From Bacteroidales bacterium UBA6680 (GTDB lineage Bacteria > Bacteroidota > Bacteroidia > Bacteroidales > UBA6680), in the NCBI GenBank assembly GCA_002454955.1, contig DKJY01000130.1:13769-77768 (forward strand): DNA of 64,000 bases, read 5' to 3'. Within the stretch, counting starts at the first letter, position 1; the number at the start of each line of letters is the position of its first letter. Below are positions 43,909 to 60,990 of this stretch, in pieces. The position numbers and the translations under genes are program-made. The notes under the pieces were generated by a model. That model had not been told where the DNA came from, did no database searches, and worked only from the letters and a program-made list of their open reading frames with translations.

Positions 43909-45612
43909 ATGCTAATTATGAGAACCATATTAATAATCATATTATCCGCTTTATTAGTAAAAACAGCCCAAGGCAGAGATATAAAGCAGCAACCATCGGC
44001 AAAATATCTTGATAGTATATATGTGTTTACTGAGTTATCATATACCGATATTAAAATGGCTCAGGATAAACTTGTTGAGATGGAAGCGTTGTTAAATACA
44101 GACAACTATCAATATAAGGATGCTGTAATGTATCTGTTCAAAGGTATTGTTGAACGTGGAAAGAACAACAACAGTCAGGCACACACTCAGTTCAAAAGAT
44201 CAAAAGAGCTTATATATCCTAAACACAACAGCAGCAGCGATGCAATGTACATATACTTCTGTAGTACACTGTCTGAATCAGATCTGCTTATGACAGAATA
44301 TAAGTTTAAAGAGAGTATTGAGCTAATGTATAAACTAGAGCAACATTTTCTTACAAAAAACAGAGAGTGGCTTATAGATATATATAACAATATTGCAGCA
44401 ATATATAGCGAGATTGATGAAAATGAACTAACTATTAAGTATCTGGAGAAAGCCCTGGAGGTTGCCATAGATGATAATGCTATAGGTACAATGCTTACCA
44501 TAAAGATAAATCTTGCATCTATAGAGCACGTAAATAACAACCACAAAGGTGCCCTTGACATACTCTATGAGATGGGAAAACCATCTGATTACAAGGTGAT
44601 AGGTTACAATGAACTGGATGAGATGTACTGGGCACTTATGGCAAACTCTCTGTATGAGATTGGCGATTATAAAGCATCGTTAAATGCAATTCAAGCACTT
44701 GACTCTCTGCCTGAGCAGGATATGTACTACAGGGCTAAAGCACATATAACACACGCCAATATTGCCGGTAAAAGAGGCGACTACAAAACTGTTGCTAATC
44801 AGATGCTAAAAGCAAAGCAGATATTTGATCAATATAACAATCCTTACTTTAACAAAGATCTGTATGAGAATATGTTCTACATATATAAACATAACCCCGA
44901 TAGTGTAAAGAAGTATGTTGAACTATTTATGGCATATACAGATACCACCAGAATGGAGTCATACACTGATAATATTGTAAATCTGGAGGTAAAAAAAGCC
45001 ATGCGCGAACTCGATAACAGATATACCGAGCTAAAGATATCTAATCTGTACCAGAAAAGAATAACACAGAATCAGTTCTACATAATTATACTTATTACAA
45101 TACTTCTTATTGCCACCACTGTAACACTGCTGATAATACGTACAAAAAACAGAAAGCTAAGGTTCCATCTAAACAGACTTATACAGAACAACAAAAAAAT
45201 ATATGAAAAGAGAGAGAGTAACAATCGCGATGTACGTATTGGTAATGAAAAGAGAGAGATGCTTATATCTGAATGGGAAGAGATTATACTAAACAAAGAG
45301 CTGTTTAAAAATAAAGATATATCGCTACAGATTATTGCGCGTAAACTAAAAACAAATACATCGTACCTATCTGAGAGTATAAACTCATATTACAACAAAA
45401 ACTTTAATAAACTCATAAACGAATATCGAATAAAGGAGAGTCTTAAATACTTTCATAACAACAACACATCAAACTATACTATAGAGTATGTAGCAACATC
45501 ATCGGGTTTTAAATCAATGTCGGCATTCTACAGAGCCTTTAAGGAGTATACCGGGGTTACACCAAGTGTATATCTAAAAGAGTTAAACAGTAAGGATAGT
45601 GTTAAGGTTTAG
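43909..45612 (+). CDS. TPR-repeat, single-TM, AraC-type HTH transcriptional regulator
   Basis: It has a signal/anchor and a TPR-like helical region. The TM helix is FYIIILITILLIATTVTLLII. The C-terminal HTH_18-like segment is SLQIIARKLKTNTSYLSESI...YVATSSGFKSMSAFYRAFKEYTGVTPSVY. Confidence 0.8.
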   Translation: MLIMRTILIIILSALLVKTAQGRDIKQQPSAKYLDSIYVFTELSYTDIKMAQDKLVEMEALLNTDNYQYKDAVMYLFKGIVERGKNNNSQAHTQFKRSKELIYPKHNSSSDAMYIYFCSTLSESDLLMTEYKFKESIELMYKLEQHFLTKNREWLIDIYNNIAAIYSEIDENELTIKYLEKALEVAIDDNAIGTMLTIKINLASIEHVNNNHKGALDILYEMGKPSDYKVIGYNELDEMYWALMANSLYEIGDYKASLNAIQALDSLPEQDMYYRAKAHITHANIAGKRGDYKTVANQMLKAKQIFDQYNNPYFNKDLYENMFYIYKHNPDSVKKYVELFMAYTDTTRMESYTDNIVNLEVKKAMRELDNRYTELKISNLYQKRITQNQFYIIILITILLIATTVTLLIIRTKNRKLRFHLNRLIQNNKKIYEKRESNNRDVRIGNEKREMLISEWEEIILNKELFKNKDISLQIIARKLKTNTSYLSESINSYYNKNFNKLINEYRIKESLKYFHNNNTSNYTIEYVATSSGFKSMSAFYRAFKEYTGVTPSVYLKELNSKDSVKV

Positions 45613-45652
45613 CTAAGCAATTTATTAGCTTGTTATACATCTTGATATAGCA

Positions 45653-45684
45653 AGAGAGCGGGTCACTGGATATGCCCGCTCTCT
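45653..45684. terminator. Hairpin between convergent genes
   Basis: AGAGAGCGGG (45653-45662) pairs with CCCGCTCTCT (45675-45684). Confidence 0.5.
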
Positions 45685-45731
45685 CTGTACTGTTAATATA
45701 TAATAACAGTAGCATGGTATCTTTTAGCTGG

Positions 45732-46247
45732 TTAAAACTGTTTAACCATAATCCTATTCTCATAATCGTTGCCATCCATATTAAAAAATATATGTCCGGC
45801 ATCTGTGTGCCCCTCTCTAATATAGAATCGTATTGCGGATTCATTACCAGAATATACACTTAACCAATACCCTCTCCTACCCGATCTTTTAAGTATATCT
45901 TTAGCTCCGTCTAATAACATAATACCTATACCCTGCCCACAGAATCTACTAAGCACATACAAAACAGTAATCTCAGGATAATTTACCCCATCAACCGGAG
46001 CCTTGGCACTATAATCAAGTTGTAACAGCCCAACAATATGGTTGTTACTCTCTGCCACAAGCGTAACCATATTATCACTATTCAGCAGCGTTTTCTCGTT
46101 ATCTACAGTAAACTCACTAATAACATACTCCGAGAACTCACTCCTTACACCTTCAGTTGCATAGGTATCTATCCACACCTGCTGCTTTACAACAACAATA
46201 TTTGTTATATCCTCAAATCTTGCCTCTCTTATAGTAAAATTACACAT
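45732..46247 (-). CDS. GNAT-family N-acetyltransferase
   Basis: It carries the acetyl-CoA-binding motif FCGQGIGIMLLDGA within a 171-aa GNAT-sized protein. Confidence 0.85.
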   Translation of the reverse strand: MCNFTIREARFEDITNIVVVKQQVWIDTYATEGVRSEFSEYVISEFTVDNEKTLLNSDNMVTLVAESNNHIVGLLQLDYSAKAPVDGVNYPEITVLYVLSRFCGQGIGIMLLDGAKDILKRSGRRGYWLSVYSGNESAIRFYIREGHTDAGHIFFNMDGNDYENRIMVKQF

Positions 46248-46750
46248 ATGCTACAAAAATAGATATCTTACCCTAAATAACAACAACCAAAAGTTAGGAA
46301 TGAGAGTAGAATAGTAAAAAGCTGTGGATATACTCACCTGCAATATTTCTGCAATAAGTTGATTCATCCTAAGAACATACCTATAATAAAGCGCCGTAAA
46401 CTAAAGAGCTTATAAGGAATATTAATTACATTTGCTAGAACAATAAAATGGCGATACGCAATGGATAGAGTTGATCTGGTTAATTTATCTGGGAGTGTAT
46501 GTCATTTAAAAAGCCTATGGATACTGATAAACTAAATATTGACAATAAAGATATTTGGGATTCTAATGCAAAGGGTTAAGAGTATATGGGAGAATATGGC
46601 AACGACTGACATAAATGGCTAATAATTCAGTGCCCTTGCTTCAATTCAGGATCTGCAAATAGTCTGTTATAAATGAATTTATTGGGTCATCTTTTAACCC
46701 GAAGACAGACAATGGGATTTACTCAAGATTCTCTCCCATATTAATTATAA

Positions 46751-46882
46751 AGATGATTAATATGAAACGAAGCATAAGAAAGAGTTTCCACACACAAGAA
46801 ACAAGCATAAGAGTTGCTTACTAGTACACTAAAATGATTATTATGGAATTCAATATGACCATTGAAAAGAAAAAATAAATAT
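46751..46882 (+). promoter_or_regulatory. Leader element C1 upstream of the MATE gene, containing a conserved mini-ORF (46762..46824, MKRSIRKSFHTQETSIRVAY)
   Basis: TAATATGAAACGAAGCATAAGAAAGAGTTTCCACACACAAGAA matches 38 of 43 positions of a second copy at 56749-56791. A second shared box, TTCAATATGACCATTGAAA, lies just before the gene start. Confidence 0.4.
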
Positions 46883-48229
46883 ATGAAGGATAATAAAATT
46901 TTAACGGGAAAAATAAACTCAGTATTTTTCTCCTTTGCAATCCCTGTAGTACTCGGATTGGTTGCATCTTCTTCGGCAGGTATTATTGACGGAATGTTTA
47001 TTGGTAATTATATTGGAGAAACAGCACTTGCCGCAGTAACGCTATGTGTACCAATATTTCCTTTTTTAATGGGAATTGCTATTCTATTCTCAACTGGTGG
47101 CGAGGTATTTAGTGGCAAATTCATAGGCGAAGGTAATCATAAAAGAGCATCCGAAGTATTCACAAAAGTTATAATTGTTATTCTTACAATAAGCACTCTG
47201 CTAATGATTATTGGTCTGGTTTTTCTGGACTCATTAGTTAATCTGCTTGGAGCTGATAAGGAGGTGCATCAGATGGCTTCTGAATATTTACAGATAATTA
47301 TAATTAGTGCTCCGCTTATTGCTACGTTTTCCTTATCCTATTTTGTACGTGTTGATGGTAAACCAAACCTTAGTGCCGCATCGCTGTTAGCCACTGCCGT
47401 TCTTAATATAGTTTTAGATTACATATTTATTGTTGAGCTAAATTGGGGTATAAAAGGAGCTGCCTGGGGAACTATTCTGTCATACACAGCTATGCCCATT
47501 CTGCTACTACCTCACTTTATATTACGACAAGGAAACTTAAGATTTGTTAAGCCTACAAAATCACTCAAGATACTAGGAGAAGTAGCTTATAATGGATCTT
47601 CCGAATTTTTTAGCGAGATATCAGGAGGTATCTTACTGTTTGTTATAAATATTACCATGATGAAATATTATGGAAACAGAGGTGTTGCAGCTTATGCCGT
47701 AGTTGGTTATCTCCTATATTTCACCGCAATGGCATGCTATGGAGTTTCAGATGCAATAAAATCTATTGTTAGTATAAACTTTGGAGCAAAGCAGCGCAAA
47801 CGTATCTCTCAGTTTTTGCGAGTAGCAATAATTACTGTAGTCTCTTTTGGTTTTGTATTAGTAATCTTAACACAAATAAACTCAACCCTGTTTGTACAAC
47901 TATTTCTTAAAAATAATGCTGATACTACAGTTAGCACTTTAGCAAATGATTTCATATTATCAATCTCACCAGTACTATTAATTATAGGAACAAATATAAT
48001 ATTGTCAGCCTACTTTACGGCAATTCATATGCCAAAACCATCGTTAATAATTTCTCTATCAAGAACACTGATACTACCTCTAATTTTGATACCAATAATT
48101 ACAAGCCTTGTTGGCGGAGACGGAATTATTACGGCATTAATTATATCAGAAATAGCAACCCTTCTAATAGCAATATTGTTAGTATTAGGAAACAAAAATA
48201 AGGTAGCTTTTAAATCTCTTGATTCATAA
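46883..48229 (+). CDS. MATE-family multidrug/toxin efflux transporter
   Basis: It is a twelve-helix hydrophobic profile with N-terminal MatE-like sequence (FFSFAIPVVLGLVASSSAGIIDGMFIGNYIGETALAAV). The ATG at 46883 is preferred over the track TTG at 46862. Confidence 0.9.
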   Translation: MKDNKILTGKINSVFFSFAIPVVLGLVASSSAGIIDGMFIGNYIGETALAAVTLCVPIFPFLMGIAILFSTGGEVFSGKFIGEGNHKRASEVFTKVIIVILTISTLLMIIGLVFLDSLVNLLGADKEVHQMASEYLQIIIISAPLIATFSLSYFVRVDGKPNLSAASLLATAVLNIVLDYIFIVELNWGIKGAAWGTILSYTAMPILLLPHFILRQGNLRFVKPTKSLKILGEVAYNGSSEFFSEISGGILLFVINITMMKYYGNRGVAAYAVVGYLLYFTAMACYGVSDAIKSIVSINFGAKQRKRISQFLRVAIITVVSFGFVLVILTQINSTLFVQLFLKNNADTTVSTLANDFILSISPVLLIIGTNIILSAYFTAIHMPKPSLIISLSRTLILPLILIPIITSLVGGDGIITALIISEIATLLIAILLVLGNKNKVAFKSLDS

Positions 48230-48265
48230 AACCTATTTTACTGTCTTAAACAAGCTTAAGAATGA

Positions 48266-48375
48266 ATACCACTTATGGTCATACATAGTCACAAATTTGT
48301 ATATTTCCGCTTTTGTAAATAACTTTAACAAGTATGCTCTGCTAAACATACTGAGCACACACAATAAATATACGT
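48266..48375 (+). promoter_or_regulatory. Intergenic module B, copy 1 (decayed palindrome plus TTTG-N20-TAACTTTA promoter-like core)
   Basis: It is identical to the copy at 51055-51162 at 101 of 108 positions by my count, with a 53-nt uninterrupted identical run. TTTG lies at 48296-48299 and TAACTTTA at 48320-48327. Confidence 0.55.
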
Positions 48376-48567
48376 AATGTGGGCAACTGGGTAAATTTGG
48401 ACATTAAACAATACAGCGGTTTAATAGTGAAGAGCCTTGAAATCCGGCACTACGCATATTCAAGTAGTTAGCTTTAATTTAACATTAATAAAGCACAGTC
48501 TTCCATTCTTAATGGATTACAGCTATTCTATATATTTTTATCGATACTAACTAAACTTAACATTAAA

Positions 48568-50007
48568 ATGAAAAAAATAATATTACTGATCATAAGCCTA
48601 GTGTTTATTAATGCTATTCAAGCACAAATTATCAATTCAGACTCCATTAAATTGGAACTCACAAAATATTTAAATCAACAAAAAGAGAAATATCAATTAC
48701 CAAGTCTGGTATTAGTATTGGTTCAGGGAGATAGTATAATTTATTCAAAAGCATTAGGGTATGCAGATGTTGAAAAAAAACTACCGGCAACTATTGATAG
48801 TAAATATCCTATAATGTCTATTACAAAGACGTTTACTGCTACTGTTTTAATGCAATTATATGAGGAAGGTAAATTATCATTGTATGACAAAGTGGAGACA
48901 TATATTCCGGAATATCAAGTTAAGACAGAAAATGGTAACAAGGCAAATACCAACTTGTTTCAGTTAAGTATACACAGTTCCGGTTTGGGTAGGAATTCAG
49001 GAGTTGATTTCCCTTATTTTAATTCATCAAATCGCTGGTATTTGAGTAACGGACAAGAAGAGTTAAAATGGTTTGTTACCAATAAAGAACTTTTAGCCTC
49101 GTTAAAAGAATTAAAACTGGAATATCCAGCGTATCATTTCTATCCTTTTAGCCGTCACTACTCCAATACAGGTTATGCACTATTAAGTATTGCTCTTGAA
49201 AGGATTAATAACAAGAGTATTACAAAATCTATAGAAGAAAACATCCTTCATCCTTTAGGAATGTTTAATACAGGATTTATAAATGAGAAAAACATCAGCA
49301 ATAAATTAGCAAAAGGTTACGCGCAATCCTGGAAAGATGACAAATTGCTAAAAGTACCAACCATTGATGTAGACAAAAATAATACAGTAATTGGAGCCGG
49401 TGGGTTATATTCAACAGGCCGTGATATGAGCAAGTATATCTCTTTTCAGTTGAGTAATAATAAACATAAAGAAGTCCTGTCCCAATTTTCAAAGAACAAA
49501 ATGTATTCTTTGAGAATAGGTTGGTCTTACTCTTATTACTATCCTTTTTCATTGATAACACACGATGGCGCTTTTATGGGATATAGAAGTCACATGGCAT
49601 TTAATCCCGACAAAGGAATAGGGTGGATTGTTTTTATCAATAAAAATGGTCAGCAAAGCGGTGAAAATGGAATGAGTTTCCGTAAATTAAATTCAAAAAT
49701 GGTTGAACTATTATATGATAGCAAAAACAATAATACCGAAGTAATCAATTATGAAAAGTATGTGGGTACATACAAAGCTATAGGAGGTAAAGAAGTAATT
49801 GAAATTAAGAAAGATGCTAAAGGTCTATATTCAACTCATTTAAACGACCTAATTGATAATACATACCTTGAACCAAATGGCTATCATTCGTTTATAGTAA
49901 AAGGAAATGGTGACCACAAAACCTATTATAAATTTATTATAGATAAGAACCAACGAGTAATCTCCTTAAAATTGGGGCCATTTGTTTGGAATAAAATTGA
50001 AAACTAA
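48568..50007 (+). CDS. Secreted beta-lactamase-fold serine hydrolase
   Basis: It has a signal peptide, an SxxK motif (MSITKTF) and a YxN motif (YSNTGY). Confidence 0.85.
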   Translation: MKKIILLIISLVFINAIQAQIINSDSIKLELTKYLNQQKEKYQLPSLVLVLVQGDSIIYSKALGYADVEKKLPATIDSKYPIMSITKTFTATVLMQLYEEGKLSLYDKVETYIPEYQVKTENGNKANTNLFQLSIHSSGLGRNSGVDFPYFNSSNRWYLSNGQEELKWFVTNKELLASLKELKLEYPAYHFYPFSRHYSNTGYALLSIALERINNKSITKSIEENILHPLGMFNTGFINEKNISNKLAKGYAQSWKDDKLLKVPTIDVDKNNTVIGAGGLYSTGRDMSKYISFQLSNNKHKEVLSQFSKNKMYSLRIGWSYSYYYPFSLITHDGAFMGYRSHMAFNPDKGIGWIVFINKNGQQSGENGMSFRKLNSKMVELLYDSKNNNTEVINYEKYVGTYKAIGGKEVIEIKKDAKGLYSTHLNDLIDNTYLEPNGYHSFIVKGNGDHKTYYKFIIDKNQRVISLKLGPFVWNKIEN

Positions 50008-50220
50008 AGCTAGTTGAGTAGGTAAAGGGGAATCTCACCCCTAAACCTCTCACAGAACCGTACGTGAACCTTTCAATTCATGCGGCACTTATCATGTTAT
50101 CAATTACCATATTAGATTAACTGACACATAATGTTAAATGATAAAACAGATTAGGATAACACTTATAGGTACACCGAAACTGATCCAAGTTTTCAGCTAA
50201 GATCATGACCATTAAAAATG
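50008..50220 (+). repeat. Intergenic module A, copy 1 (begins at the stop codon of the upstream gene)
   Basis: It shares blocks with the copies at 50819, 53194 and 57762: TAAAGCT-AGT...GTAGGTAAAGGGG..CTCACCCCTAAACCTCTCACAG, GAACCGTACGTGAACC, TCAATTCATGCGGC, TTATCATG, and TTTTCAGCTAAGAT. Confidence 0.8.
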
Positions 50221-50290
50221 GTTGCCACATATGGCAATACGTGGCAACAAAGTTGTATATTTCCGTTTTGTATATAACTTTAACAATCTA
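50221..50290 (+). promoter_or_regulatory. Intergenic module B, copy 2 (palindrome GTTGCCACATAT-GGCA-ATACGTGGCAAC plus TTG-N19-TAACTTTA)
   Basis: The palindrome spans 50221-50248. TTG lies at 50253-50255 and TAACTTTA at 50275-50282, 30 nt before the ATG at 50312. Confidence 0.55.
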
Positions 50291-50311
50291 CAGTTAGCCA
50301 CAACTAAACAA

Positions 50312-50818
50312 ATGGAACTTCGAAATCTAATAGGGAAAAAGATTAGTGATATAAGAATGGAAGTAAAAGATTTTCCATATGATGGAAGCATTCCATTGGA
50401 TGAATCTGTAAGCCATATTATTTTGGATTCAAATGAAATAATCGAAATTCCTTATCTAAATTCAAATTGCTTGTTATTAGAAGAAGCCCTATCGAAGAAT
50501 CAAAAAACAATCTTTGAAGAAAACGGAAATAAGTCTATACTTCATAAGTTATTTTTCCAGTCAGACTCTGATAATCTGATTACCAGAAATACCAATAATA
50601 TTAAAGACAAAGAAATTACAGCCATTTTTCAATATGATAGTCTATATTCAGATAAAGGTCGAGAATGGGATAAATGTTTGATCCAAGTTGAAAGTGGTTT
50701 TTTGATAAGTGAAAAAACAATCTCTCCTAAAGGGACAGGGCAAGCAGGAATTTGGATTTTTACCTCGCTTGAAGATTTAACAACAAAGATTGGAAGTGGT
50801 TTTAGAAAATTAATATAA
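50312..50818 (+). CDS. Hypothetical protein (168 aa)
   Basis: This is an ORF with an ATG at 50312 (MELRNLIGKK). The track ORF start at 50222 lies inside the repeat module and is unlikely to be real. No family was recognised. Confidence 0.5.
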   Translation: MELRNLIGKKISDIRMEVKDFPYDGSIPLDESVSHIILDSNEIIEIPYLNSNCLLLEEALSKNQKTIFEENGNKSILHKLFFQSDSDNLITRNTNNIKDKEITAIFQYDSLYSDKGREWDKCLIQVESGFLISEKTISPKGTGQAGIWIFTSLEDLTTKIGSGFRKLI

Positions 50819-51055
50819 CTAAAGAAGCAGCTAATACAGTAGACGGACATGAGCTGTAAAACCCACGTTGCACCTCTCACATGCTGATCATGCTGAAGTA
50901 GAACCATACGTGACCCAGCTTAATTCATATGGCTCTTATCATGCAGTCAATTGCTTAATTTAGGTTAACTGATAACCTAATGTACAATGGTAAAACAGAT
51001 TCGGGTAACTATTACAGAGGCATCACAGTTGATTACAGCTTTTCAGCTAAGATGA
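50819..51055 (+). repeat. Intergenic module A, copy 2
   Basis: A 58-nt stretch (TATCATGCAGTCAATTGCTTAATTTAGGTTAACTGATAACCTAATGTACAATGGTAAA) matches copy 3 at 57 of 58 positions. It contains the hairpin TTAGGTTA-actga-TAACCTAA (50960-50980). Confidence 0.85.
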
Positions 51056-51165
51056 TACCACGTATGGTCATACGTGGTCACAAATTTGTATATTTCCGCT
51101 TTTGTAAATAACTTTAACAAGTATGCTCTACTAAACATGCTGAGCACACACAATGTATATACAAA
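51056..51165 (+). promoter_or_regulatory. Intergenic module B, copy 3 (perfect palindrome ACCACGTATG-GT-CATACGTGGT plus TTTG-N20-TAACTTTA)
   Basis: The palindrome spans 51057-51078. TTTG lies at 51085-51088 and TAACTTTA at 51109-51116. A downstream small hairpin, TGCTC...GAGCA, is present. Confidence 0.6.
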
Positions 51166-51251
51166 ATAGGCGTGATAGTAGTAAACTCAACAACTTTGCA
51201 TATGCTTTCTGTTTTCTACAACGCAGGTGCCACATATAACAATGATACAGA

Positions 51252-52034
51252 ATGATTGATTATGTTGAACCGACAAAGATTTTAAGCAAATACATAAAAC
51301 ACTATTTAGTTGTTGAGTTAGACAATCCAATGGACTTTTTACCTAATGAAAGAGTTTATCCCTGCGGATATGCAACTATGGTTTTTCATTATGGTTCTCC
51401 GTCGATATTTCAGAAGAAGGATTCAAGCAAATATATTGAACCCAATTTGGTCATTTGTGGACAACAAACCAGTTATTATGACCTGTCATTATCAGGAAAG
51501 ACGGGCATGGTTCTTATTGTATTTAAACCGCATGGAATAAAATCTTTTTTCAATTTCCCAATTACTGAATTATTAAATGAGAATCTTTCGCTTCAGGACT
51601 TAATTAATAATGAGACTATTGAATTAGAAGACAAACTGTTTAACTCTCCGAATAATAGACAAAGAATTATTCATCTAGAAAACTTTCTTATTAAAAGATT
51701 AATTCATAATAATGAATTTGAACGAGTTGAACATGCCATAAAAATAATTGAGAATTCTAAAGGGCAAATTAAAGCTCAAGATATTGCACATGAGGTTTGT
51801 TTGGGGATAAAGCAATTTGAAAGGACTTTTTCAAAATATGTTGGCATAAATCCCAAAAAGTATGCAAGTATTGTCCGGTTTCAAAATGTCATACAAATGA
51901 AAAGAGAGCATAAAGACCTAAACATGTCTCAATTAGCTTTTGATAATGGTTATTACGATCAATCTCATTTTATTCATGATTTTAAAAGTTTAACAGGATT
52001 TACTCCAAAGTCTTTTTTTAACGCCAGAAAATAA
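51252..52034 (+). CDS. AraC-family transcriptional regulator
   Basis: The C-terminal HTH_18 segment is IAHEVCLGIKQFERTFSKYVGINPKKYASIVRF...LAFDNGYYDQSHFIHDFKSLTGFTPKSF. Confidence 0.85.
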   Translation: MIDYVEPTKILSKYIKHYLVVELDNPMDFLPNERVYPCGYATMVFHYGSPSIFQKKDSSKYIEPNLVICGQQTSYYDLSLSGKTGMVLIVFKPHGIKSFFNFPITELLNENLSLQDLINNETIELEDKLFNSPNNRQRIIHLENFLIKRLIHNNEFERVEHAIKIIENSKGQIKAQDIAHEVCLGIKQFERTFSKYVGINPKKYASIVRFQNVIQMKREHKDLNMSQLAFDNGYYDQSHFIHDFKSLTGFTPKSFFNARK

Positions 52035-52087
52035 AGACCATTTTTTACAATTTCTTCATTTATCTATAAACTATTTTTGAAATAAAA

Positions 52088-52822
52088 ATGGAAAGTATGA
52101 ATAAACTAAAATTAAAACATAAGGAAGTAGTAGATTTTTATACAAAAAACGCAGATGAAAATGTAGTTAAAAAACTATCTAGATATTTCAAAGAGGGATT
52201 AGATGCTTATGGTGTTGATAAAGATACGTTTTTAGCTCAAGGGAAAAAATGGCTCTCAGAATGGGAAAATGATATGACCATTGAAGATTATCTGGATTTT
52301 GGAGATATGCTCGTGTCAACCGGTAAATATGAAGAAGCACACTGTGCTACCGAGTTTATAATATCAAAAAAAGATGAATTCACACATGATACGTTTGATA
52401 GAATCGGGAAATGGTTAGAAAATGGAATTCAAAACTGGGCAAATACAGATGTATTATGCATGTCAGTATTATGTGAGTTTGTTTTTAATGATATTATACA
52501 ACCTAAAGACTTTATAAATTGGACTACTTCTGAGTCAAAATGGAAAAGAAGAGCTGTTCCGGTAACATTTGTTGAAACGTATAAAAAAGGATATAAACAA
52601 GAAACAATACTATCTGTAATAGAACATTTAATGGAAGATAAAGAAGAAGATGTTCAAAAAGGATTAGGTACGCTACTAAGAGAAATTTGGAAAAAACAAC
52701 CCGAAATAGCAGAAGAGTTTCTTTTAAAATGGAAAGATAAATGTGGACGGAAAATTATTCATTATGCGACTGAAAAAATGGATAAAGAGAATAAAGCAAA
52801 ATTCAAAAAGACTAAAAAATAG
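52088..52822 (+). CDS. DNA alkylation repair protein (AlkD-like HEAT-repeat family)
   Basis: The size and helical-repeat composition fit, and WKRRAVPVTF and the KGLGTLLREI-like segments are characteristic of PF08713 proteins. Confidence 0.7.
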   Translation: MESMNKLKLKHKEVVDFYTKNADENVVKKLSRYFKEGLDAYGVDKDTFLAQGKKWLSEWENDMTIEDYLDFGDMLVSTGKYEEAHCATEFIISKKDEFTHDTFDRIGKWLENGIQNWANTDVLCMSVLCEFVFNDIIQPKDFINWTTSESKWKRRAVPVTFVETYKKGYKQETILSVIEHLMEDKEEDVQKGLGTLLREIWKKQPEIAEEFLLKWKDKCGRKIIHYATEKMDKENKAKFKKTKK

Positions 52823-52827
52823 AGACA

Positions 52828-53193
52828 ATGGAACAAACAAATATTGATCTGGTCTCCTATTGTGGATTTTACTGTGGCACTTGCCCCAAATATACTAAAG
52901 GACATTGTGAAGGATGTAAAGGTAATAACCCAAAGTGTGCAGTTGGTTACAAATCATGTCAGGTAAAACCATGCTGCATTGAGAATGAATTTAATTCATG
53001 TGCAAACTGTAATAGATTTGAATCAGTCAAGGATTGTAAATTATATAATCCATTTATGATACGATTTGGACAATTTATTACACAAACAAATCGGAAATTA
53101 GGGATTGAGATGATAAAGGCAAAAGGGGAAACAGAGTTTGCAAAATACATGATTGATAAAGGTTGGGTAACGATTAAGAGTAGAAAACAATAA
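52828..53193 (+). CDS. DUF3795-family Cys-rich protein
   Basis: The N-terminal YCGFYCGTCPKY...CEGCKG...C pattern is typical of DUF3795. Confidence 0.75.
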   Translation: MEQTNIDLVSYCGFYCGTCPKYTKGHCEGCKGNNPKCAVGYKSCQVKPCCIENEFNSCANCNRFESVKDCKLYNPFMIRFGQFITQTNRKLGIEMIKAKGETEFAKYMIDKGWVTIKSRKQ

Positions 53194-53400
53194 AGCTCAG
53201 TACACGTAGTAAAAGGGAACCTCACCCCTAAACCTCTCACAGCTCTACTGGGCATTGCCGAAGTAGAGCCGTATGTGCCCCCCTCAATTCATACGGCTAT
53301 TATCATGCAGTCAATTGCTTAATTTAGGTTAACTGATAACCTAATGTATAATGGTAAATCGCATTGGTTATAGCTTTTGTTAATTTGCTCCTATCCTATT
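53194..53400 (+). repeat. Intergenic module A, copy 3 (begins at the stop codon; followed by the 105-bp tandem array instead of module B)
   Basis: It has the same block order as copies 1 and 2. Its hairpins are GCTCTACT-N12-AGTAGAGC, AGCCGTATG-N14-CATACGGCT and TTAGGTTA-actga-TAACCTAA (53326-53346). Confidence 0.85.
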
Positions 53401-54300
53401 TTCTATTCAAACCATGTATCCGGAATACAAAACCACTAACCTGAAACATCAAACCTATAAACCTGAATTGTCAACCATCAATATTTTTGTGCAGACCATA
53501 CATCCAGAAACAAAAACCAAACATCCAGAATGCAAAACTGCTAATCTGAAATCATAAACCTATAAACCTGAGTTGGCAACCATCAATATTTCTGTGCAGA
53601 TCATCCATCCAGAAATAAAAACCAAACGTCCAGAATGCAAAACTGCTAATCTGAAATAACAAACCTATAAACCTGAGTTGGCAACCATCAATATTTCTGT
53701 GCAGATCATCCATCCAGAAATAAAAACCAAACGTCCAGAATGCAAAACTGCTAATCTGAAATCATAAACCTATAAACCAGAACTGTCAACCATCAATATT
53801 TCTGTGCAGATCATCCATCCAAAAATAAAAACCAAACGTCCAGAATGCAAAACTGCTAATCTGAAATAACAAACCTATAAACCTGAGTTGGCAACCATCA
53901 ATATTTCTGTGCAGATCATCCATCCAGAAATAAAAACCAAACATCCAGAATGCAAAACTGCTAATCTGAAATAATAAACCTATAAACCAGAACTGTAAAC
54001 CATCAATATTTCTGTACAGACCATACATCCAGAAATAAAAACCAAACATCCAGAATGCAAAACTGCTAATCTGAAATGACAAACCTATAAAACTGAACCG
54101 TAAACCATCAATATTTTTGTACAGACCATACGTCCAGAAATAAAAACAAAAAACAAAACATCCAGAATGCAAAATAACTAATCTGAAATAGCAAACCTAT
54201 AAGCCAGAACTGTAAACCATCAATATTTTTGTACAGACCTCAAATCCAAAAATAGAAATCATGAATACAGAATATAGAATCATTAACATGAAACATTAAT
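53401..54300. repeat. Tandem repeat array with a 105-bp unit: eight phased units plus degenerate flanking partial units
   Basis: The CCATCAATATT anchor occurs at 53475, 53580, 53685, 53790, 53895, 54000 and 54105 (exact 105-bp spacing) and at 54217 (112 bp). The alternating A/B unit variants give a 210-bp higher-order period. Each unit has an 8-bp inverted repeat, TATTTCTG-N15-CAGAAATA. Confidence 0.95.
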
Positions 54301-54528
54301 TCACAATGTTATTACAAATATTATTTAACAGCCAGAGACTTATTTGATAAATATTTTTGTTATTGCAATACGCATAAAGGTTAAAATATAGACAGAGATA
54401 CCATGAACAGTGATTTCTATGATAGAATAAGTTAGAAACCGGAAAAACTAATTTTATATTGACATAGTTATCAGTTATTTGTAATTTAATTAGCGATAAT
54501 ATTATTATAAATTAAAATCCTTTGGTTT

Positions 54529-55248
54529 ATGAAAACTTCAAAATGGTCGTTAAAAGACCTTGCAAAGTTGAACACTGCGTTTAATAACTGTAAGAATCCG
54601 GAGATTAAGAGCAAATTGGAGATAGTTGGTGTAGGTGATATATTTGTTGATAAGGGTATAAATCTACATTCCGATATTGTCAAACTGGATATGAAACACA
54701 AAAATGAGTTGCAAGAGAAGAGTCAGGCATTTACTCAATACAAAGAGAAGCGTGATGAGTGTAGGAACGATTATGATACCATTCTACACTTTGTACGTAT
54801 AGCAGCCAGATTTGACAACAATCTGGGCTCACGCATAAGAACAACATCTGTACCGGAGAATCCTGTAAATGAGTGGCCATATCAGATTGATCTCTTCTAT
54901 GACTCGTTAGAGAAGGAACCATCTATCATGAACTTTCTAAAAGAGCGTAAATTTCCGGATGATATCATTACAATCAACAGAGCTAAAATTAAAACGTTAA
55001 TTAATCTGCATAACCGCGTTGATACCGAAAAAGGTCAGGCAGAAGATGCACGCAGAGAACGTGACAGCAAGTTTGCCGAGTTAATTGATATGTGGTGGGA
55101 ACTTAAAGCATATGCTCTATTTGCACTAAAAGAAACACCTCAACTTCTCGAAGAGCTCGGAATAAAGGTAAAAGTTAATCCTACATCAGGATTTATTAGT
55201 TCAACATTATGTTCAAAAGCAGTCGGAAGGCTGCTTTTTTTTAAGTAA
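54529..55248 (+). CDS. Hypothetical protein (239 aa, predicted helical)
   Basis: This is an ORF with an ATG start and no recognised family. Confidence 0.5.
   Translation: MKTSKWSLKDLAKLNTAFNNCKNPEIKSKLEIVGVGDIFVDKGINLHSDIVKLDMKHKNELQEKSQAFTQYKEKRDECRNDYDTILHFVRIAARFDNNLGSRIRTTSVPENPVNEWPYQIDLFYDSLEKEPSIMNFLKERKFPDDIITINRAKIKTLINLHNRVDTEKGQAEDARRERDSKFAELIDMWWELKAYALFALKETPQLLEELGIKVKVNPTSGFISSTLCSKAVGRLLFFK
55216..55242 (+). terminator. Rho-independent terminator overlapping the end of the 54529..55248 ORF
   Basis: AAAGCAG tcggaagg CTGCTTT is followed by a T run. Confidence 0.5.
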
Positions 55249-55251
55249 TAA

Positions 55252-55325
55252 TTCGGTTGCTTACTACTCTATTTGATAACGTAATTTGTATATTTCGCTT
55301 GGTAAGCAACACTTAACAAGTGAAT
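55252..55325 (+). promoter_or_regulatory. Intergenic module B', copy 1 (GTTGCTTAC...GTAAGCAAC inverted repeat flanking the AATTTGTATATTTCGC core)
   Basis: It shares GCTTACT..T.T..AT.T..TAACGTAATTTGTATATT-C-GCTT-GTAA with the copy at 58181-58245. The 9-bp inverted repeat lies at 55256-55264 and 55302-55310. Confidence 0.5.
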
Positions 55326-55442
55326 ATTGCTATGCATAAAAGATAAACATAATAAATATAGATATTAAAAGATCATAGCGATTTGGATGGGAAAAAATAT
55401 GATGTCAAACACCCCATGTTTAAGTGATTGGCAACAATTTGA

Positions 55443-56279
55443 ATGAATTTCGAAGAGAAAATAATAAAATACAAAGACCGAATAGTTTTCATCAAGCTAT
55501 CTATGCCTTTTTTCAACAGAACATTAAAACGTTATATTGAAAATGAAGCTTGTTTTATGTTCGTCAATAAAGGAGAAGTGAGTGTAAGAACACCTGATGA
55601 TTATCTTATACTTAATCATGATACTGGAATGATTGCTAAATGTTTAAATTATTTCTTTGAACCCACTAATAATCAAAAAATTTGTACTAAAGGGATAGAG
55701 TCTGTAGGGGTTTTTCTTTATCCTTCATTGGTTAAAGATTTATTTGATTTAGATGTTTCCGCTTCAAGTTATAAAATAAACTATAATGTAAAACAAGTGC
55801 AAGTAGATTTAATGCTAAATAATTTTAGACAAAGCATAGATATACTGCTAGAGAACCCGGAATTAGTTGATGATAACATCATAGAGACCAAGCTGAAAGA
55901 GTTTGTTCAATTACTTGTTAAGTCGCAAAATGCACCATCTCAGTTAGATTTTTTGGCAGCTTTATTTAAACCAAACGAAATAGAATTTAAAACAGTAATT
56001 AAACAAAACTTGTATACCAATCTTTCTGTTAAAGAGCTAGCATTACTTACACATTTAAGCGAATCTTCGTTTAAAAGAAAGTTTAAAGAGGTATTTAATG
56101 ATAGTCCTAAGAAATACCTCACTCAAAAGAAGATTGAGCGTGCTGCTGAGTTACTAAAATTGAGAACAAACCGTGTATCTGAAATCGCATATGATGTAGG
56201 TTTTGATTCTGTATCAACATTCAATCGTAATTTTGCTGTTTATTATGGAAAATCGCCTTCAGATTATCGCACGATCTAA
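55443..56279 (+). CDS. AraC-family transcriptional regulator
   Basis: The C-terminal HTH_18 segment is LALLTHLSESSFKRKFKEVFNDSPKKYLTQKKIERAAELL...IAYDVGFDSVSTFNRNFAVYYGKSPSDY. Confidence 0.85.
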   Translation: MNFEEKIIKYKDRIVFIKLSMPFFNRTLKRYIENEACFMFVNKGEVSVRTPDDYLILNHDTGMIAKCLNYFFEPTNNQKICTKGIESVGVFLYPSLVKDLFDLDVSASSYKINYNVKQVQVDLMLNNFRQSIDILLENPELVDDNIIETKLKEFVQLLVKSQNAPSQLDFLAALFKPNEIEFKTVIKQNLYTNLSVKELALLTHLSESSFKRKFKEVFNDSPKKYLTQKKIERAAELLKLRTNRVSEIAYDVGFDSVSTFNRNFAVYYGKSPSDYRTI

Positions 56280-56740
56280 AATGAACAGTCTTTGACCTAA
56301 ATTGCACTTAAGGCTAATACAACCTACATTACCTTTGTATCAATATAAAATACAAGGTTATGAACTATTCCGAAATTTACATATTTATTTCAGAGTCGAT
56401 CCTGACAACCATAGGAGACTTAATAATTTTTAAGCCAATAAACATTAAGCCTAATGAAGGGATAGAGATAGCAGGAAATGCAAGTGTATTATACTATGTC
56501 TGTTCATTTGGAGTATTACTGTTTGCTATAATATTACTTTCACTTTTGGAAAGCCTTAAGGACTCATCAAGTAAATCTGTTGCGATTTCTTCTTTTCCTA
56601 TCATTAGCATTTGGCAGATTACCAACCGTTTTACTTAGCGTAATTACATCAGGCGGAATGGTAAAACTATAGACTAGAGATCATGTTTAGCCTATTCGGA
56701 TTTATCCTTCTTTAATTAAATAGCAAGAAAATCTTTTAAA

Positions 56741-56840
56741 ATTAGAATAATATGAAACGAAGCATGAGAAAGAGTTTTCGCACACGAGGATGACTAAAAA
56801 TGCGGCGTTCCATATGACCTATTAAAACAAATTTAGACAT
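56741..56840 (+). promoter_or_regulatory. Leader element C2 upstream of the SDR gene, containing the conserved mini-ORF (56752..56793, MKRSMRKSFRTRG)
   Basis: It is the second copy of the element at 46751-46882. The second box, TTCCATATGACCTATTAAA, lies about 20 nt before the ATG at 56841. Confidence 0.4.
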
Positions 56841-57761
56841 ATGAATAAATCAATATTGATAACAGGAGCCAATGCTGGAATTGGTAAAGAGACTGCAAGG
56901 CAATTAGCATTAATAGAAGAAACAGAATTAATCTATTTAGCATGTAGAAATCTTGAAAAAGCAGAAATAGCAAAGAAAGAACTAATTGAAATTACAGGAA
57001 GAGATATATTTAAAATTATTGTTCTGGATATCTCGAAACCTGATAATGTTAAGCAAGCTGTTTTACAATTATATGAACCAATAGATGCCGTAATAATGAA
57101 TGCTGGCGGAACAGGAGGAAAAACACCTGAAAAACTTACCAAAGATGGGGTTACAGAATTAACTGCGAGTAATCTTTTAGGACACGTTGTGCTTCTTGAT
57201 GAGTTAATATTGCAAAACAAATTAAATAATGTGGCTTTATTTGCTAGTTCTGAAGCCTCCAGAGGTATTGAAAGAGTGGGAATAAAAAGACCTGATTTAA
57301 AGGATAATTCAGTAGATGAATTTGTTTCAATTTTTGATGGAAGCAAGTTTAAAGGAAACTTTGATGCATATCAGATTTATGGCTGGATTAAATATGGAGG
57401 AACTCTTTGGATGAGTAATATGGCAAGAAAACATCCGAACATCAAATTTATAAGCATGAGTCCAGGGGGAACAAGGGGTACCAACGGTATGAATGATTTA
57501 CCTTTTTTAAAGAGAATATTTTTAAAACATATTGGAATGAAATTAATTATGCCATTAATGGGAATGTCGCATTCAGTAGAGAAAGGTGCAAAACGTTTTG
57601 TTGAAGGTATTAATAACCCAAAATTCAAAAGTGGTATATTTTATGCAAGTAAAGAAAAGGTATTAACAGGACAAGTTATAGATCAAAATAGTATTTGGAA
57701 GGATTTAGGTAATCATAAATTTCAAAATAATGCAGATATAGCAATTCATAAATTTATTTGA
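56841..57761 (+). CDS. Short-chain dehydrogenase/reductase (SDR) family oxidoreductase
   Basis: It has ITGANAGIGKETA (TGxxxGxG), NAGG, and a YxxxK candidate (YGWIK). Confidence 0.85.
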   Translation: MNKSILITGANAGIGKETARQLALIEETELIYLACRNLEKAEIAKKELIEITGRDIFKIIVLDISKPDNVKQAVLQLYEPIDAVIMNAGGTGGKTPEKLTKDGVTELTASNLLGHVVLLDELILQNKLNNVALFASSEASRGIERVGIKRPDLKDNSVDEFVSIFDGSKFKGNFDAYQIYGWIKYGGTLWMSNMARKHPNIKFISMSPGGTRGTNGMNDLPFLKRIFLKHIGMKLIMPLMGMSHSVEKGAKRFVEGINNPKFKSGIFYASKEKVLTGQVIDQNSIWKDLGNHKFQNNADIAIHKFI

Positions 57762-57930
57762 TTAGAAACATTAACCAATTAAGTAAGTAAAGGGAGGTCT
57801 CACCACCAGATCTCCCTTAGCTCTGCAAAACATACAGAGATAGAACCGTACGTGAACCTCCCTATCCGATGGTATATCTTATTAGATATAACTCAATGCC
57901 AATTTGCTCCTACCTTATGCTTTATTCATA
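57762..57930 (+). repeat. Intergenic module A, copy 4 (partial and diverged)
   Basis: It carries AGTAAGTAAAGGGAGGTCTCACCACCAGATCTCCC (a 9-bp stem with one G-T pair), GAACCGTACGTGAACC, and AATTTGCTCCTACCTTATGCTTTATTCA. The last block matches 53385-53410. Confidence 0.7.
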
Positions 57931-58180
57931 TTAATTTTTGGTAATGATATTTATCAATGGTATTACCTACAGTAAATGACAAACCTTCTACTCTCAATGT
58001 TCTATATCAGTTACGCTAAGTGTAACTAAAGTCAAATGCTATTCAAACTTTAACTATATAATATATAATCAACTATAGCTTGTATCTGGCAATAACAGAA
58101 CCAGCTTATAGTTTATATTAGTTAAGGTTAAACCCCACCCACAAAGGACTTCTCTTTCCGAACAATTCAGATGCTTACTG

Positions 58181-58245
58181 TTGTTATATCTAACGTAATT
58201 TGTATATTCCGCTTTGTAAATAACTTTAATCCTGAGCACTATGAC
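58181..58245 (+). promoter_or_regulatory. Intergenic module B', copy 2 (TTTG-N18-TAACTTTA)
   Basis: TTTG lies at 58209-58212 and TAACTTTA at 58231-58238. It is similar to 55252-55325 upstream of the core and to the B copies downstream of it. Confidence 0.5.
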
Positions 58246-60978: not shown

Positions 60979-60990
60979 ATAAATAAGATT

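What the first reader, a model, noticed from the sequence alone, without database searches (positions are those of the whole stretch)
51056..51165. Module B: portable promoter with a 20-22 bp palindromic operator, reused upstream of several cassettes
Copies at 48266, 50221 and 51056 carry a palindrome followed about 7 nt later by TTTG/TTG-N19-20-TAACTTTA. The latter is a 7-of-8 match to the Bacteroidota -7 box TAnnTTTG, with appropriate spacing to a -33 TTG. Two B' copies exist:
- The copy at 58181 keeps the core (TTTG-N18-TAACTTTA).
- The copy at 55252 keeps the core only partly.
Both replace the palindrome with a different upstream segment (GCTTACT...TAACGT).

The palindromes are as follows:
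- Copy 3: ACCACGTATG-GT-CATACGTGGT, perfect 10-bp arms.
- Copy 2: GTTGCCACATAT-GGCA-ATACGTGGCAAC. Its outer arms differ from copy 3 on both sides in a complementary way.
- Copy 1: three substitutions break the symmetry.

Copies 1 and 3 match at 101 of 108 positions although they precede unrelated genes (a hydrolase and an AraC regulator). This looks like a mobile promoter-plus-operator unit that could place different cassettes under one unknown dimeric regulator.
Basis: partly seen in the sequence, partly recalled or inferred. Interest (0 to 1): 0.7.

Follow-up and report, generated by a model that had tools for sequence, protein, structure and literature searches.

The report
Outward promoter inside decayed group II introns
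The repeated "promoter plus palindrome" is the front end, read backwards, of small dead copies of a self-splicing mobile intron wedged between genes; it probably still serves as a promoter for the next gene, and the palindrome is more likely an intron hairpin than a regulator's docking site.

Summary
Three Module B copies and two B' copies exist as described, and copies 1 and 3 match at 101 of 108 positions.

On the minus strand, each intergenic unit (Module A, palindrome, Module B, leader) is a miniature, ORF-less, degenerate group II intron:
- It starts with 5' GUGUGUGC.
- It ends in domains V and VI (Rfam RF00029, 50.4 bits) a few bases from the upstream gene's stop codon.
- Fuller copies in two coral-associated Bacteroidales MAGs keep a domain I core and a maturase remnant (Pfam GIIM, E 9e-17).

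The Module B core (TTTG-N19/20-TAACTTTA) lies in an AU-rich domain I loop and points out of the intron's 5' end towards the next gene. It is the best-conserved part of all 17 copies, even where the ribozyme has decayed. This fits an outward promoter like Pout of group IIC-attC introns.

The palindrome sits next to the core only because of a roughly 105-nt internal deletion:
- It is absent from 5 of 17 cores.
- It occurs twice without an adjacent core.
- It decays asymmetrically.
- It diverges faster than the core between orthologous cassettes.

An operator role is therefore not supported. No transcription data exist.

The parts
50835..51151 (-). Unit 3: a miniature, ORF-less, degenerate group II intron relic of about 317 nt. 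It contains the finding's copy 3. Its 5' end (GUGUGUGCUCAGCAUG) is at 51151. Its 3' end lies about 17 nt after the stop codon of the upstream + gene (50816-50818).
   Evidence: - 5' end: 13 of 16 identical to the first 16 nt of a validated intron, L028.
- D5-like hit at 50935->50901.
- Collinear with 13 related copies.
- The 3' end is placed by alignment to unit 2, whose Rfam match ends at 50013.
51085..51116 (+). Module B core of copy 3: -33 TTTG (51085-51088), 20-nt spacer, -7-like TAACTTTA (51109-51116). It is a putative outward-facing Bacteroidota sigma-A promoter aimed at the AraC gene (ATG 51252). On the intron strand it is the AU-rich apical part of a domain I stem-loop.
   Evidence: - Sequence.
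- Most conserved block in 17 copies.
- Consensus from PMC7366714 and PMC9723704.
- Function is inferred; no TSS data.
51057..51078 (.). Palindrome of copy 3, with 10-bp arms. It is interpreted as a domain I hairpin of the intron relic that an internal deletion brought next to the promoter core.
51117..51151 (-). 5'-terminal stem of the intron relic (GUGUGUGCUC...GAGCAUAC). On the + strand it would be the first ~30 nt of the transcript leader.
50901..50935 (-). Domain V remnant of unit 3. The lower helix GAGCCAUAU/GUAUGGUUC is intact and the upper helix is degenerate.
   Evidence: (RF04357, 20 bits, E 2.9).
50010..50290 (-). Unit 2: an intron relic that has lost its extreme 5' end. Its parts are:
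- domains V-VI at 50090->50013
- palindrome at 50221-50248
- core with TTG at 50253-50255 and TAACTTTA at 50275-50282, 30 nt before the ATG at 50312
   Evidence: - Rfam RF00029, 50.4 bits, above the gathering score of 40.
- The catalytic triad reads UGC instead of AGC (alignment).
-.
48256..48362 (-). Unit 1: the 5' fragment only of the mini intron. Its parts are:
- degenerate palindrome at 48268-48289
- core at 48296-48327
- 5' stem running to about 48362
Domains V-VI are missing.
   Evidence: -.
- MATE cassette homology with the Marinifilaceae MAG ends at 48262, just before the palindrome.
57780..58245 (-). B' copy: a fuller but decayed ORF-less intron relic of about 470 nt. Its parts are:
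- D6 and D5 (57783-57880)
- decayed remnant of the palindrome hairpin (about 58094-58125)
- domain I core remnant GAGAAGUCC
- core at 58200-58228
55249..55330 (-). B' fragment: only the promoter-core loop and one flank of the domain I stem survive (core 55286-55310, -7 box degenerate).
53197..53365 (-). 3' fragment of an intron relic (D6, D5, hairpin TTAGGTTAACTGATAACCTAA) without Module B. It abuts the 105-bp tandem array.
   Evidence: (D8, D11).

Best explanation
**What it is.** Module B is not a free-standing promoter/operator cassette. It is the first ~100 nt, read on the opposite strand, of a family of degenerate, ORF-less group II intron relics. These sit antisense in the spacers of a variable array of accessory genes.

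**Shown: layout of unit 3 on the minus strand.**
- 5'-GUGUGUGC terminal stem
- AU-rich domain I loop (Module B core)
- hairpin (the palindrome)
- about 120 nt of reduced ribozyme
- domain V
- domain VI, ending beside the stop codon of the upstream gene

**Shown: history.**
- Fuller relatives carry about 105 nt more of domain I (GGUGAAAGUCC and flanking sequence) between core and hairpin.
- Fuller relatives also carry a maturase remnant.
- The 'palindrome 7 nt upstream of -33' arrangement therefore arose from an internal deletion.

**Inferred: function.**
- The domain I loop reads on the gene strand as a Bacteroidota sigma-A promoter (TTTG, 19-20 nt, TAACTTTA).
- It fires out of the intron's 5' end into the downstream gene. 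This would compensate for the intron separating that gene from upstream transcription, as shown for Pout of group IIC-attC introns.
- After the ribozyme died (no reverse transcriptase, domain I core deleted, domain V mutated), selection kept the promoter block. That would explain why it is the best-conserved part.
- The palindrome is a leftover intron hairpin. At most it adds a read-through barrier. It is not a binding site for a dimeric regulator.
For: **Intron identity**
- RF00029 (domains V-VI) on the minus strand at 50090->50013, 50.4 bits against a gathering score of 40. The orthologous junction in MAG McBI.38 scores 52.8 bits.
- D5 3'-strand motifs follow four + gene stops.
- The intron 5' end matches the first 16 nt of intron L028 at 15/16 (L014) and 13/16 (window copy 3). 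L028 is validated by RF02001 at 96.6 bits plus RVT_1 and GIIM ORFs.
- A Pfam GIIM remnant (E 8.8e-17) lies in the intron-sense frame inside a B' copy.
- Weak but correctly ordered and oriented domain I hits occur in fuller copies: RF02001 E 0.021 and RF02003 full-length E 0.035, with the palindrome aligned to a model hairpin.
- D5 and D6 pairs show compensatory changes.

**Promoter**
- All 17 cores point at a same-strand ORF 30-240 nt away.
- The shared block ends exactly at -33 and just past -7, while both flanks vary.
- Mean pairwise identity is 0.91 for the core against 0.72 for D5 and 0.47 for the 5' stem.
- The core survives in copies reduced to about 80 nt (55249-55330).
- The core also survives in copies that lost the intron 5' end (copy 2).
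- The consensus is taken from PMC7366714 and PMC9723704.
- Precedent: P1out in domain I of antisense IIC-attC introns (PMC3001079).

**Palindrome is not an operator**
- It is absent from 5 of 17 cores.
- Two palindromes (M_5124, B_14563) have no B core between them and the next ORF; domain I core sequence follows them directly.
- The distal arm carries 24 substitutions and the proximal arm 10.
- Deviations give 14 G-U pairs on the intron strand against 5 on the gene strand.
- Between orthologous cassettes the palindrome is 75-86% identical, the core 92-97% and the ORFs 98%.
Against: **Promoter**
- No transcription start data exist for this uncultured organism.
- The -7 box has A where the consensus has its final G.
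- The loose motif TTG-N18-21-TAnnTTT[GA] is common in this AT-rich window.
- RNAalifold proposes a pairing between the core (AAAACGGR) and YCUGUUUU further 3'. This could offer an RNA-level reason for conservation. However, B' copies that lack the partner still keep the core.

**Intron identity**
- The mini copies give no Rfam domain I hit.
- No full-length parent with exactly this core was recovered.

**Palindrome**
- It is still the second most conserved segment among mini copies (0.86).
- It is unusually perfect for an RNA hairpin.
- A secondary function, as a terminator or even a protein site, is therefore not excluded.

**Spread**
- How a ribozyme-dead mini copy spread to more than 10 junctions in three genomes is unexplained.
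Confidence: 0.7

Rival explanations
1. One reading: Module B is a mobile promoter-plus-operator unit. The 20-28 bp palindrome binds an unknown dimeric regulator that co-regulates the cassettes.
For: - The palindrome lies 6-7 nt upstream of -33 in 12 copies and has long, nearly perfect arms.
- It is the second best conserved segment of the mini copies (0.86).
- One symmetric A-T to G-C change occurs.
- AraC-type regulators are encoded in the array.
Against: - Five of 17 promoter cores lack it.
- Two palindromes have no B core before the next ORF and are followed directly by domain I sequence.
- It is always attached to the intron-derived 'Module A' side and aligns to a hairpin position of group II domain I.
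- The half-sites decay unequally, 24 versus 10 substitutions.
- It diverges faster than the core and the ORFs between orthologous cassettes.
- No copy was found outside intron relics in any locus examined.
- AraC proteins typically bind direct repeats, not palindromes (general knowledge).
Confidence: 0.1
2. The palindrome has been co-opted as a bidirectional intrinsic terminator or insulator. It would stop read-through from the upstream gene, or antisense transcription, just before the outward promoter. This is compatible with the main explanation.
For: - Copy 2 scores as a terminator on the minus strand: a 12-bp stem followed by CATTTTTAAT.
- The stem is stable on both strands.
Against: - Most copies have no U-tract after the hairpin on either strand.
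- Several copies have broken stems.
- B' junctions do without it.
Confidence: 0.2
3. Module B has no promoter function. Its conservation reflects only recent copying or gene conversion among intron relics, or a role of that loop in the intron RNA.
For: - The promoter match is imperfect (TAACTTTA) and the loose motif is frequent in this window.
- The related intron L028 has the same AU-rich loop at the same place without a good -33/-7 pair.
- RNAalifold pairs part of the core with a downstream segment.
Against: - Within the same copies the core is far better conserved than D5, D6 or the 5' stem.
- The edges of conservation coincide with -33 and -7.
- The core is kept in fragments that cannot form any intron structure (55249-55330, and copy 2 without the 5' end).
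- Orientation towards an ORF holds in 17 of 17 copies.
Confidence: 0.2
4. The junction repeats are attC-like recombination sites of an integron-type cassette array, and the palindrome is the site bound by an integrase.
For: - The array consists of same-strand, unrelated accessory genes.
- Gene content differs next to a conserved flank in a related MAG.
- Cassettes are shared at 94-98% identity between genomes.
- Repeats occur at the junctions.
Against: - No integrase lies in the 64-kb window or the next 8 kb.
- The palindrome is a perfect short hairpin without RYYYAAC/GTTRRRY cores or extrahelical bases.
- Shared-cassette boundaries do not fall in the palindrome.
- The spacer beyond the intron 5' end travels with the downstream gene, not the upstream one.
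Confidence: 0.04

Closest known systems
Outward-oriented promoters (P1out/P2out) of group IIC-attC introns such as S.ma.I2 (Leon, Quiroga, Centron, Roy, NAR 2010; PMC3001079)
   Same: - A group II intron lies antisense between same-strand cassette genes.
- A promoter in a variable region of domain I, close to the intron 5' end, fires outward into the next gene.
- The intron otherwise blocks read-through.
   Different: - Here the motif is of Bacteroidota -33/-7 type, not sigma-70 type.
- It lies at intron positions ~36-67, not 81-109.
- The introns are ORF-less, miniaturised and catalytically dead.
- They occupy many junctions of one array.
- No attC sites or integron integrase are present.
- Promoter activity is untested here.
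ORF-less and fragmentary group II introns in bacterial genomes (general knowledge, for example ORF-less derivatives in Thermosynechococcus; from memory)
   Same: - The intron-encoded protein is lost.
- Multiple copies occur per genome.
- Domains V-VI are retained as the recognisable signature.
   Different: - The known ORF-less mobile derivatives keep a complete ribozyme core.
- The mini copies here share a ~105-nt deletion of the domain I core.
- What they keep best is the antisense promoter block.
Outward promoters carried by insertion sequences in Bacteroides that activate adjacent resistance genes (from memory; not checked here)
   Same: A mobile element supplies a Bacteroidota-type promoter to whatever gene lies downstream.
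   Different: The carrier here is a retroelement (group II intron) relic and not a DNA transposon. The context is a chromosomal accessory-gene array in uncultured coral-associated Bacteroidales.
Integron attC repeats (for example Vibrio cholerae repeats) between cassettes
   Same: Related repeats separate unrelated same-strand genes in a hypervariable array.
   Different: - There is no integrase.
- There are no attC core sites.
- The repeats are intron-derived.
- Cassette boundaries are not at the palindrome.

Membership tests
Group II intron (self-splicing ribozyme/retroelement) | Domain V hairpin with catalytic triad, followed by domain VI | tested here: met
   - RF00029 at 50090->50013 (-), 50.4 bits against gathering 40. 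This is unit 2, directly upstream of Module B copy 2.
- The orthologous junction in MAG McBI.38 scores 52.8 bits.
- Unit 3, next to the finding, has only a D5-like hit (E 2.9) with a degenerate upper helix.
- The triad in unit 2 reads UGC, so the element is present but probably inactive.
Group II intron (self-splicing ribozyme/retroelement) | 5' end GUGYG continuous with domain I | tested here: met
   - GUGUGUGC starts at 51151 (-).
- Matches to the first 16 nt of L028 are 13/16 for copy 3 and 15/16 for L014.
- L028 is an intron with RF02001 at 96.6 bits.
Group II intron (self-splicing ribozyme/retroelement) | Complete domains I-IV ribozyme core | tested here: not met
   - No D1D4 family hit in the window at E<=10 or in a mini copy searched alone.
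- Fuller relatives give only sub-threshold hits.
- The mini copies lack the GGUGAAAGUCC region.
- Hence these are intron-derived relics, not functional members.
Group II intron (self-splicing ribozyme/retroelement) | Intron-encoded reverse transcriptase/maturase in domain IV | tested here: not met
   - No YxDD-bearing ORF occurs in the window, L004 or L009-L016.
- Only a GIIM remnant occurs in a homologous B' copy, L016 (E 8.8e-17), and its tail in L014.
Group IIC-attC introns with Pout | Inserted antisense to the cassette ORFs | tested here: met
   All relics in the window and all 17 cores in three genomes are antisense to the flanking genes.
Group IIC-attC introns with Pout | Inserted in the bottom strand of an attC site of an integron | tested here: not met
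   - No integrase lies within 72 kb.
- The 5'-exon spacer co-varies with the downstream gene, not the upstream cassette.
- No attC covariance model was available, so the attC test itself was indirect.
Group IIC-attC introns with Pout | IEP belongs to the IIC-attC lineage | not testable with these tools
   - Only a 110-aa maturase remnant exists.
- Its closest homologues are unnamed GIIM proteins.
- No reference phylogeny is on hand.
Group IIC-attC introns with Pout | Active outward promoter in a variable part of domain I or II | tested here: inconclusive
   - The motif is present at intron positions ~36-67 in an AU-rich domain I loop.
- Conservation supports function.
- Activity cannot be measured here.
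Bacteroidota sigma-A promoter | -7 box TAnnTTTG | tested here: inconclusive
   - TAACTTTA is a 7 of 8 match; the final G is A in nearly all copies.
- Consensus from PMC7366714 and PMC9723704.
Bacteroidota sigma-A promoter | -33 TTTG/TTG about 19-21 nt upstream of the -7 box | tested here: met
   - TTTG is followed by 20 nt in copies 1 and 3, and by 19 nt in copy 2 and most MAG copies.
- The -33 consensus is from PMC7366714.
- The 19-21 nt spacing is recalled from memory and was not retrieved here.
Bacteroidota sigma-A promoter | Transcription start about 5-8 nt downstream of the -7 box | not testable with these tools
   No transcriptome is available for this uncultured organism.
Palindromic operator of a dimeric regulator | Fixed partnership and spacing with the regulated promoter | tested here: not met
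   - Absent from 5 of 17 cores.
- Two palindromes have no B core before the next ORF and are followed directly by domain I sequence.
Palindromic operator of a dimeric regulator | Both half-sites under equal constraint | tested here: not met
   - 24 substitutions fall in the distal arm and 10 in the proximal arm over 14 copies.
- Only 3 of 14 copies pair perfectly.
Palindromic operator of a dimeric regulator | A cognate DNA-binding protein | not testable with these tools
   No binding data exist.

The most novel reading that the evidence does not exclude
The intron-derived junction elements may be more than debris with promoters. They could be the machinery, or the scar, of an integrase-free cassette system.

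What the evidence shows:
- Genes are exchanged between coral-associated Bacteroidales at 94-98% identity, while a conserved flank is only about 80% identical.
- Exchange boundaries fall inside or at the ends of the antisense intron relics.

What this does not exclude:
- Group II introns, through retromobility across two intron copies or recombination between them, could assemble and shuffle promoter-equipped gene cassettes.
- That would be a natural version of the cassette-genesis model proposed for IIC-attC introns.
Probability: 0.12. Interest if true: 0.8.

Novelty: new variant of a known kind. Interest (0 to 1): 0.5.

Why it matters
- It reinterprets an apparent regulon signal as retroelement anatomy. 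This is a caution for motif-based operator calls in repeated intergenic DNA.
- If the core is active, the Pout principle (mobile introns carrying an outward promoter so that insertion does not silence the next gene) extends in three ways: from proteobacterial integrons to Bacteroidota, to a different promoter grammar, and to dead introns kept for their promoter.
- The core would be a compact, naturally portable 36-nt promoter candidate for Bacteroidota.
- The hypervariable array with intron relics at its junctions gives a concrete system for testing whether group II introns help build or shuffle gene cassettes.

Tried and rejected
- Metagenome-wide scan with the core pattern: 8 loci, all unrelated chance matches. 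The family was found only in the window organism and two MAGs.
- Search for a reverse transcriptase in all held DNA: none found.
- Rfam domain I-IV models on the window and on a mini copy alone: no hit. Domain assignments inside the mini copies therefore rest on collinearity with fuller copies.
- First idea that Module A was an attC site or a 5'-truncated retrohoming product: rejected. All copies share the same architecture and a recognisable 5' end.
- Idea that the palindrome is the class C target hairpin in the 5' exon: rejected. It lies inside the element, 3' of domain I sequence. The 5'-exon flanks show only a loose TATA-like motif.
- Genome-wide promoter statistics: TAnnTTTG is only about 2-fold enriched upstream of genes, and the composite motif is too frequent to be decisive.
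- The sigma-70 scan is not relevant to this phylum.
- MFE folding of unit 3: z = -1.9, not informative on its own.
- Homologues of the maturase remnant: the best 120 are all under 200 aa. At least one (P0112) is the downstream half of a frameshifted RT-maturase. No closer full-length parent was obtained.

Full report
**1.

Reading the window and the repeat finder confirm three Module B copies.

| Copy | Palindrome | -33 | -7 box |
|---|---|---|---|
| 1 | 48268-48289 | 48296-48299 | 48320-48327 |
| 2 | 50221-50248 | (G)TTG ending at 50255 | 50275-50282 |
| 3 | 51057-51078 | 51085-51088 | 51109-51116 |

- Two B' copies (55286-55310 and 58200-58228) share the core but not the palindrome.
- Copies 1 and 3 match at 101 of 108 positions.
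- The palindrome pattern gives 3 hits against 0.08 expected. The core pattern never occurs in shuffles.
- The downstream genes are a Beta-lactamase-family hydrolase and an AraC regulator.
- The window is a metagenome contig (JGI 3300003311, 192 kb). Identical sequence occurs in a coral metagenome and a Logan assembly.

**2. The decisive context: 'Module A' is the 3' end of a group II intron on the other strand**

- Rfam finds domains V-VI (RF00029) at 50090->50013 on the minus strand, 50.4 bits against a gathering score of 40. The match ends 6 nt from the stop codon of the upstream + gene.
- The same domain V strand motif follows the stops at 50818, 53193 and 57761. A weaker domain V hit lies at 50935->50901.

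**3. Relatives**

- A scan of species-representative genomes with the core pattern found the element only in two coral-associated MAGs: Bacteroidales McBI.38 and Marinifilaceae McD1.32. The metagenome scan gave only chance hits.
- Together there are 17 true cores and 14 palindromes.
- Every palindrome is preceded by the right-hand part of Module A.
- The sequence after TAACTTTAAC is also conserved. On the minus strand it reads GUGUGUGCCCUGCAUGUGUAGCAG, a group II 5' end.

**4. Fuller copies show the whole element is one intron**

- L014 and L016 (B' type) read, in intron sense:
  - GUGUGUGCCC...
  - a stem CACACUUGUU / AACAAGUGUG that encloses the reverse complement of the Module B core
  - GGUGAAAGUCC and further domain I sequence
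  - a maturase remnant
- The maturase remnant is a Pfam GIIM match, E 8.8e-17, 61 bits, in L016. L014 keeps only its tail.
- L014 gives a sub-threshold RF02001 hit (22.9 bits, E 0.021).
- A copy without the promoter loop (L010 5217->5102) aligns over the full length of RF02003 (18.7 bits, E 0.035). There the palindrome falls on a model hairpin.
- Homologues of the maturase remnant led to L028. This is a nearly intact intron:
  - RVT_1 plus GIIM ORFs
  - RF02001 at 96.6 bits
  - RF00029 at 34.1 bits, E 2e-4, below the gathering score of 40
- The first 16 nt of L028 match L014 at 15/16 and window copy 3 at 13/16.
- L028 has an equivalent AU-rich stem-loop at nt ~40-90.
- L028 also has a short hairpin where the palindrome lies, after ...UUAGUAAGCUG...UUGU and before UGAAGGAAG.

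**5. The B-type unit is a deletion derivative**

- Compared with fuller copies, about 105 nt of domain I between the core and the hairpin are missing.
- The window copy at 57780-58245 still shows the older order: core, then domain I remnant, then a decayed hairpin remnant.
- The '7 nt between palindrome and -33' is therefore a deletion junction.
- The window copies look catalytically dead:
  - no domain I core
  - no reverse transcriptase
  - triad UGC in unit 2
  - degenerate upper helix of domain V in unit 3

**6. Is the core a promoter?**

For:
- All 17 cores face a same-strand ORF 30-240 nt away.
- The block common to B and B' copies, and to copies that lost the intron 5' end, is AATTTGTATATTYCCG(C)TTTTGTAWATAACTTTAAC. 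That is, it runs from -33 to just past -7.
- Among nine mini copies, mean pairwise identity differs sharply by segment:

| Segment | Mean pairwise identity |
|---|---|
| Module B core | 0.91 |
| Palindrome | 0.86 |
| Domain V | 0.72 |
| Domain VI | 0.57 |
| 5' stem | 0.47 |

- Between orthologous cassettes the core is 92-97% identical.
- The motif fits the Bacteroidota sigma-A grammar: TTTG near -33 and TAnnTTTG at -7 (PMC7366714 and PMC9723704).
- There is direct precedent. Antisense IIC-attC introns carry active outward promoters in a variable part of domain I and impede read-through (PMC3001079).

Against:
- The -7 box ends in A, not G.
- The loose motif is common in the window.
- There are no transcription data.

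**7. Is the palindrome an operator?**

The evidence points away from it:
- It is absent from 5 of 17 cores.
- Two palindromes have no B core before the next ORF; domain I sequence follows them directly.
- Only 3 of 14 copies pair perfectly.
- The promoter-distal arm has 24 substitutions and the proximal arm 10.
- Deviations give 14 G-U pairs on the intron strand against 5 on the gene strand.
- Between orthologous cassettes it is 75-86% identical, where ORFs are 98%.

It may still act as a structural barrier. Copy 2 scores as a minus-strand terminator.

**8. Context**

- The relics lie in an array of same-strand accessory genes running from about 46.8 kb to about 8 kb beyond the window end. The genes include MATE, beta-lactamase-like, AraC, a DNA alkylation repair protein, SDR, a PLP decarboxylase, GNATs and VanY, among others.
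- There is no integrase or reverse transcriptase in 72 kb.
- The left flank (44000-46447) is 80% identical to MAG McBI.38, but the arrays differ.
- Single cassettes are shared at 94-98%.
- The breakpoints of the intron-flanked shared cassettes fall within or at the ends of the intron relics. Two other shared segments break where no relic lies: the left edge of the MATE cassette and the left edge of the 98% McBI.38/McD1.32 block.
- The spacer beyond the intron 5' end travels with the downstream gene. This argues against an attC geometry.

**9. Verdict**

- The element is a new variant of a known kind: an outward, Bacteroidota-type promoter carried by group II intron relics.
- Confidence by step:
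  - intron origin about 0.9
  - promoter function about 0.6
  - palindrome not an operator about 0.75
- How the dead mini copy multiplied, and whether the introns take part in cassette exchange, remains open.

Noticed in passing
window 53418-54258: A 105-bp tandem repeat with 7.9 copies at 90% identity. It starts right after a truncated intron relic (53197-53365). Two other assemblies of the same strain end inside it. Each unit carries TAGGTTTG (a TAnnTTTG match) on the minus strand. Function unknown.
   Followed up: partly
window 46755-46798 and 56745-56788: A third shared intergenic module, 44 nt at 89% identity (GATTAATATGAAACGAAGCATAAGAAAGAGTTTCCACACACAAG). It lies upstream of the MATE gene and of the SDR gene (family D12). 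It is unrelated to the intron relics.
   Followed up: no
window 44000-64000 versus L012+L013 and L010+L011: - Accessory-gene cassettes are 94-98% identical between genomes whose conserved flank is only about 80% identical.
- The array content next to that flank (AraC-TPR plus divergent GNAT) differs between the window organism and MAG McBI.38.
- This suggests recent horizontal exchange within a hypervariable island.
   Followed up: partly
window 41388-43826 (+) and L004 19554-21044 (-), about window 70238 onward: The variable array is bracketed by two large genes of similar size. Both have faint Cadherin and Por_Secre_tail (T9SS) domains and lie in opposite orientation. They may be inverted paralogues flanking the island.
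   Followed up: no
proteins P0001-P0120; L027, L028: - The 120 best homologues of the maturase remnant are all short (115-195 aa) proteins whose precomputed Pfam hits are GIIM only for all but three, which also carry RVT_1; several lie on long contigs.
- In L028 the short ORF is the second half of a frameshifted RT-maturase.
- In L027 it stands alone next to IS66 genes.
- Truncated or split intron proteins seem common in this lineage.
   Followed up: partly
window 59809-59844 and 62169-62212: Two strongly decayed domain VI-like remnants (GTAGGTAAAG...CTCAC-like) lie after the PLP-decarboxylase gene and before the last beta-lactamase-like gene. The array therefore holds about 8-9 intron relics in about 16 kb (48256-62212).
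   Followed up: no
alignment A3 columns 56-64 with 180-187 (for example window 51097->51089 with 50982->50975, minus strand): RNAalifold predicts an 8-bp long-range pairing between AAAACGGR (inside the reverse complement of the promoter core) and YCUGUUUU in the middle of the element. It shows only one-sided changes. It may be chance; B' copies lack the partner.
   Followed up: partly
window 46325-46489; L009 (rc) 5920-6093; L012+L013 (rc) 4254-4426: A segment of about 170 nt upstream of the divergent GNAT gene recurs inside the MAG array at 77-83% identity. It is another repeated intergenic module of unknown role.
   Followed up: no
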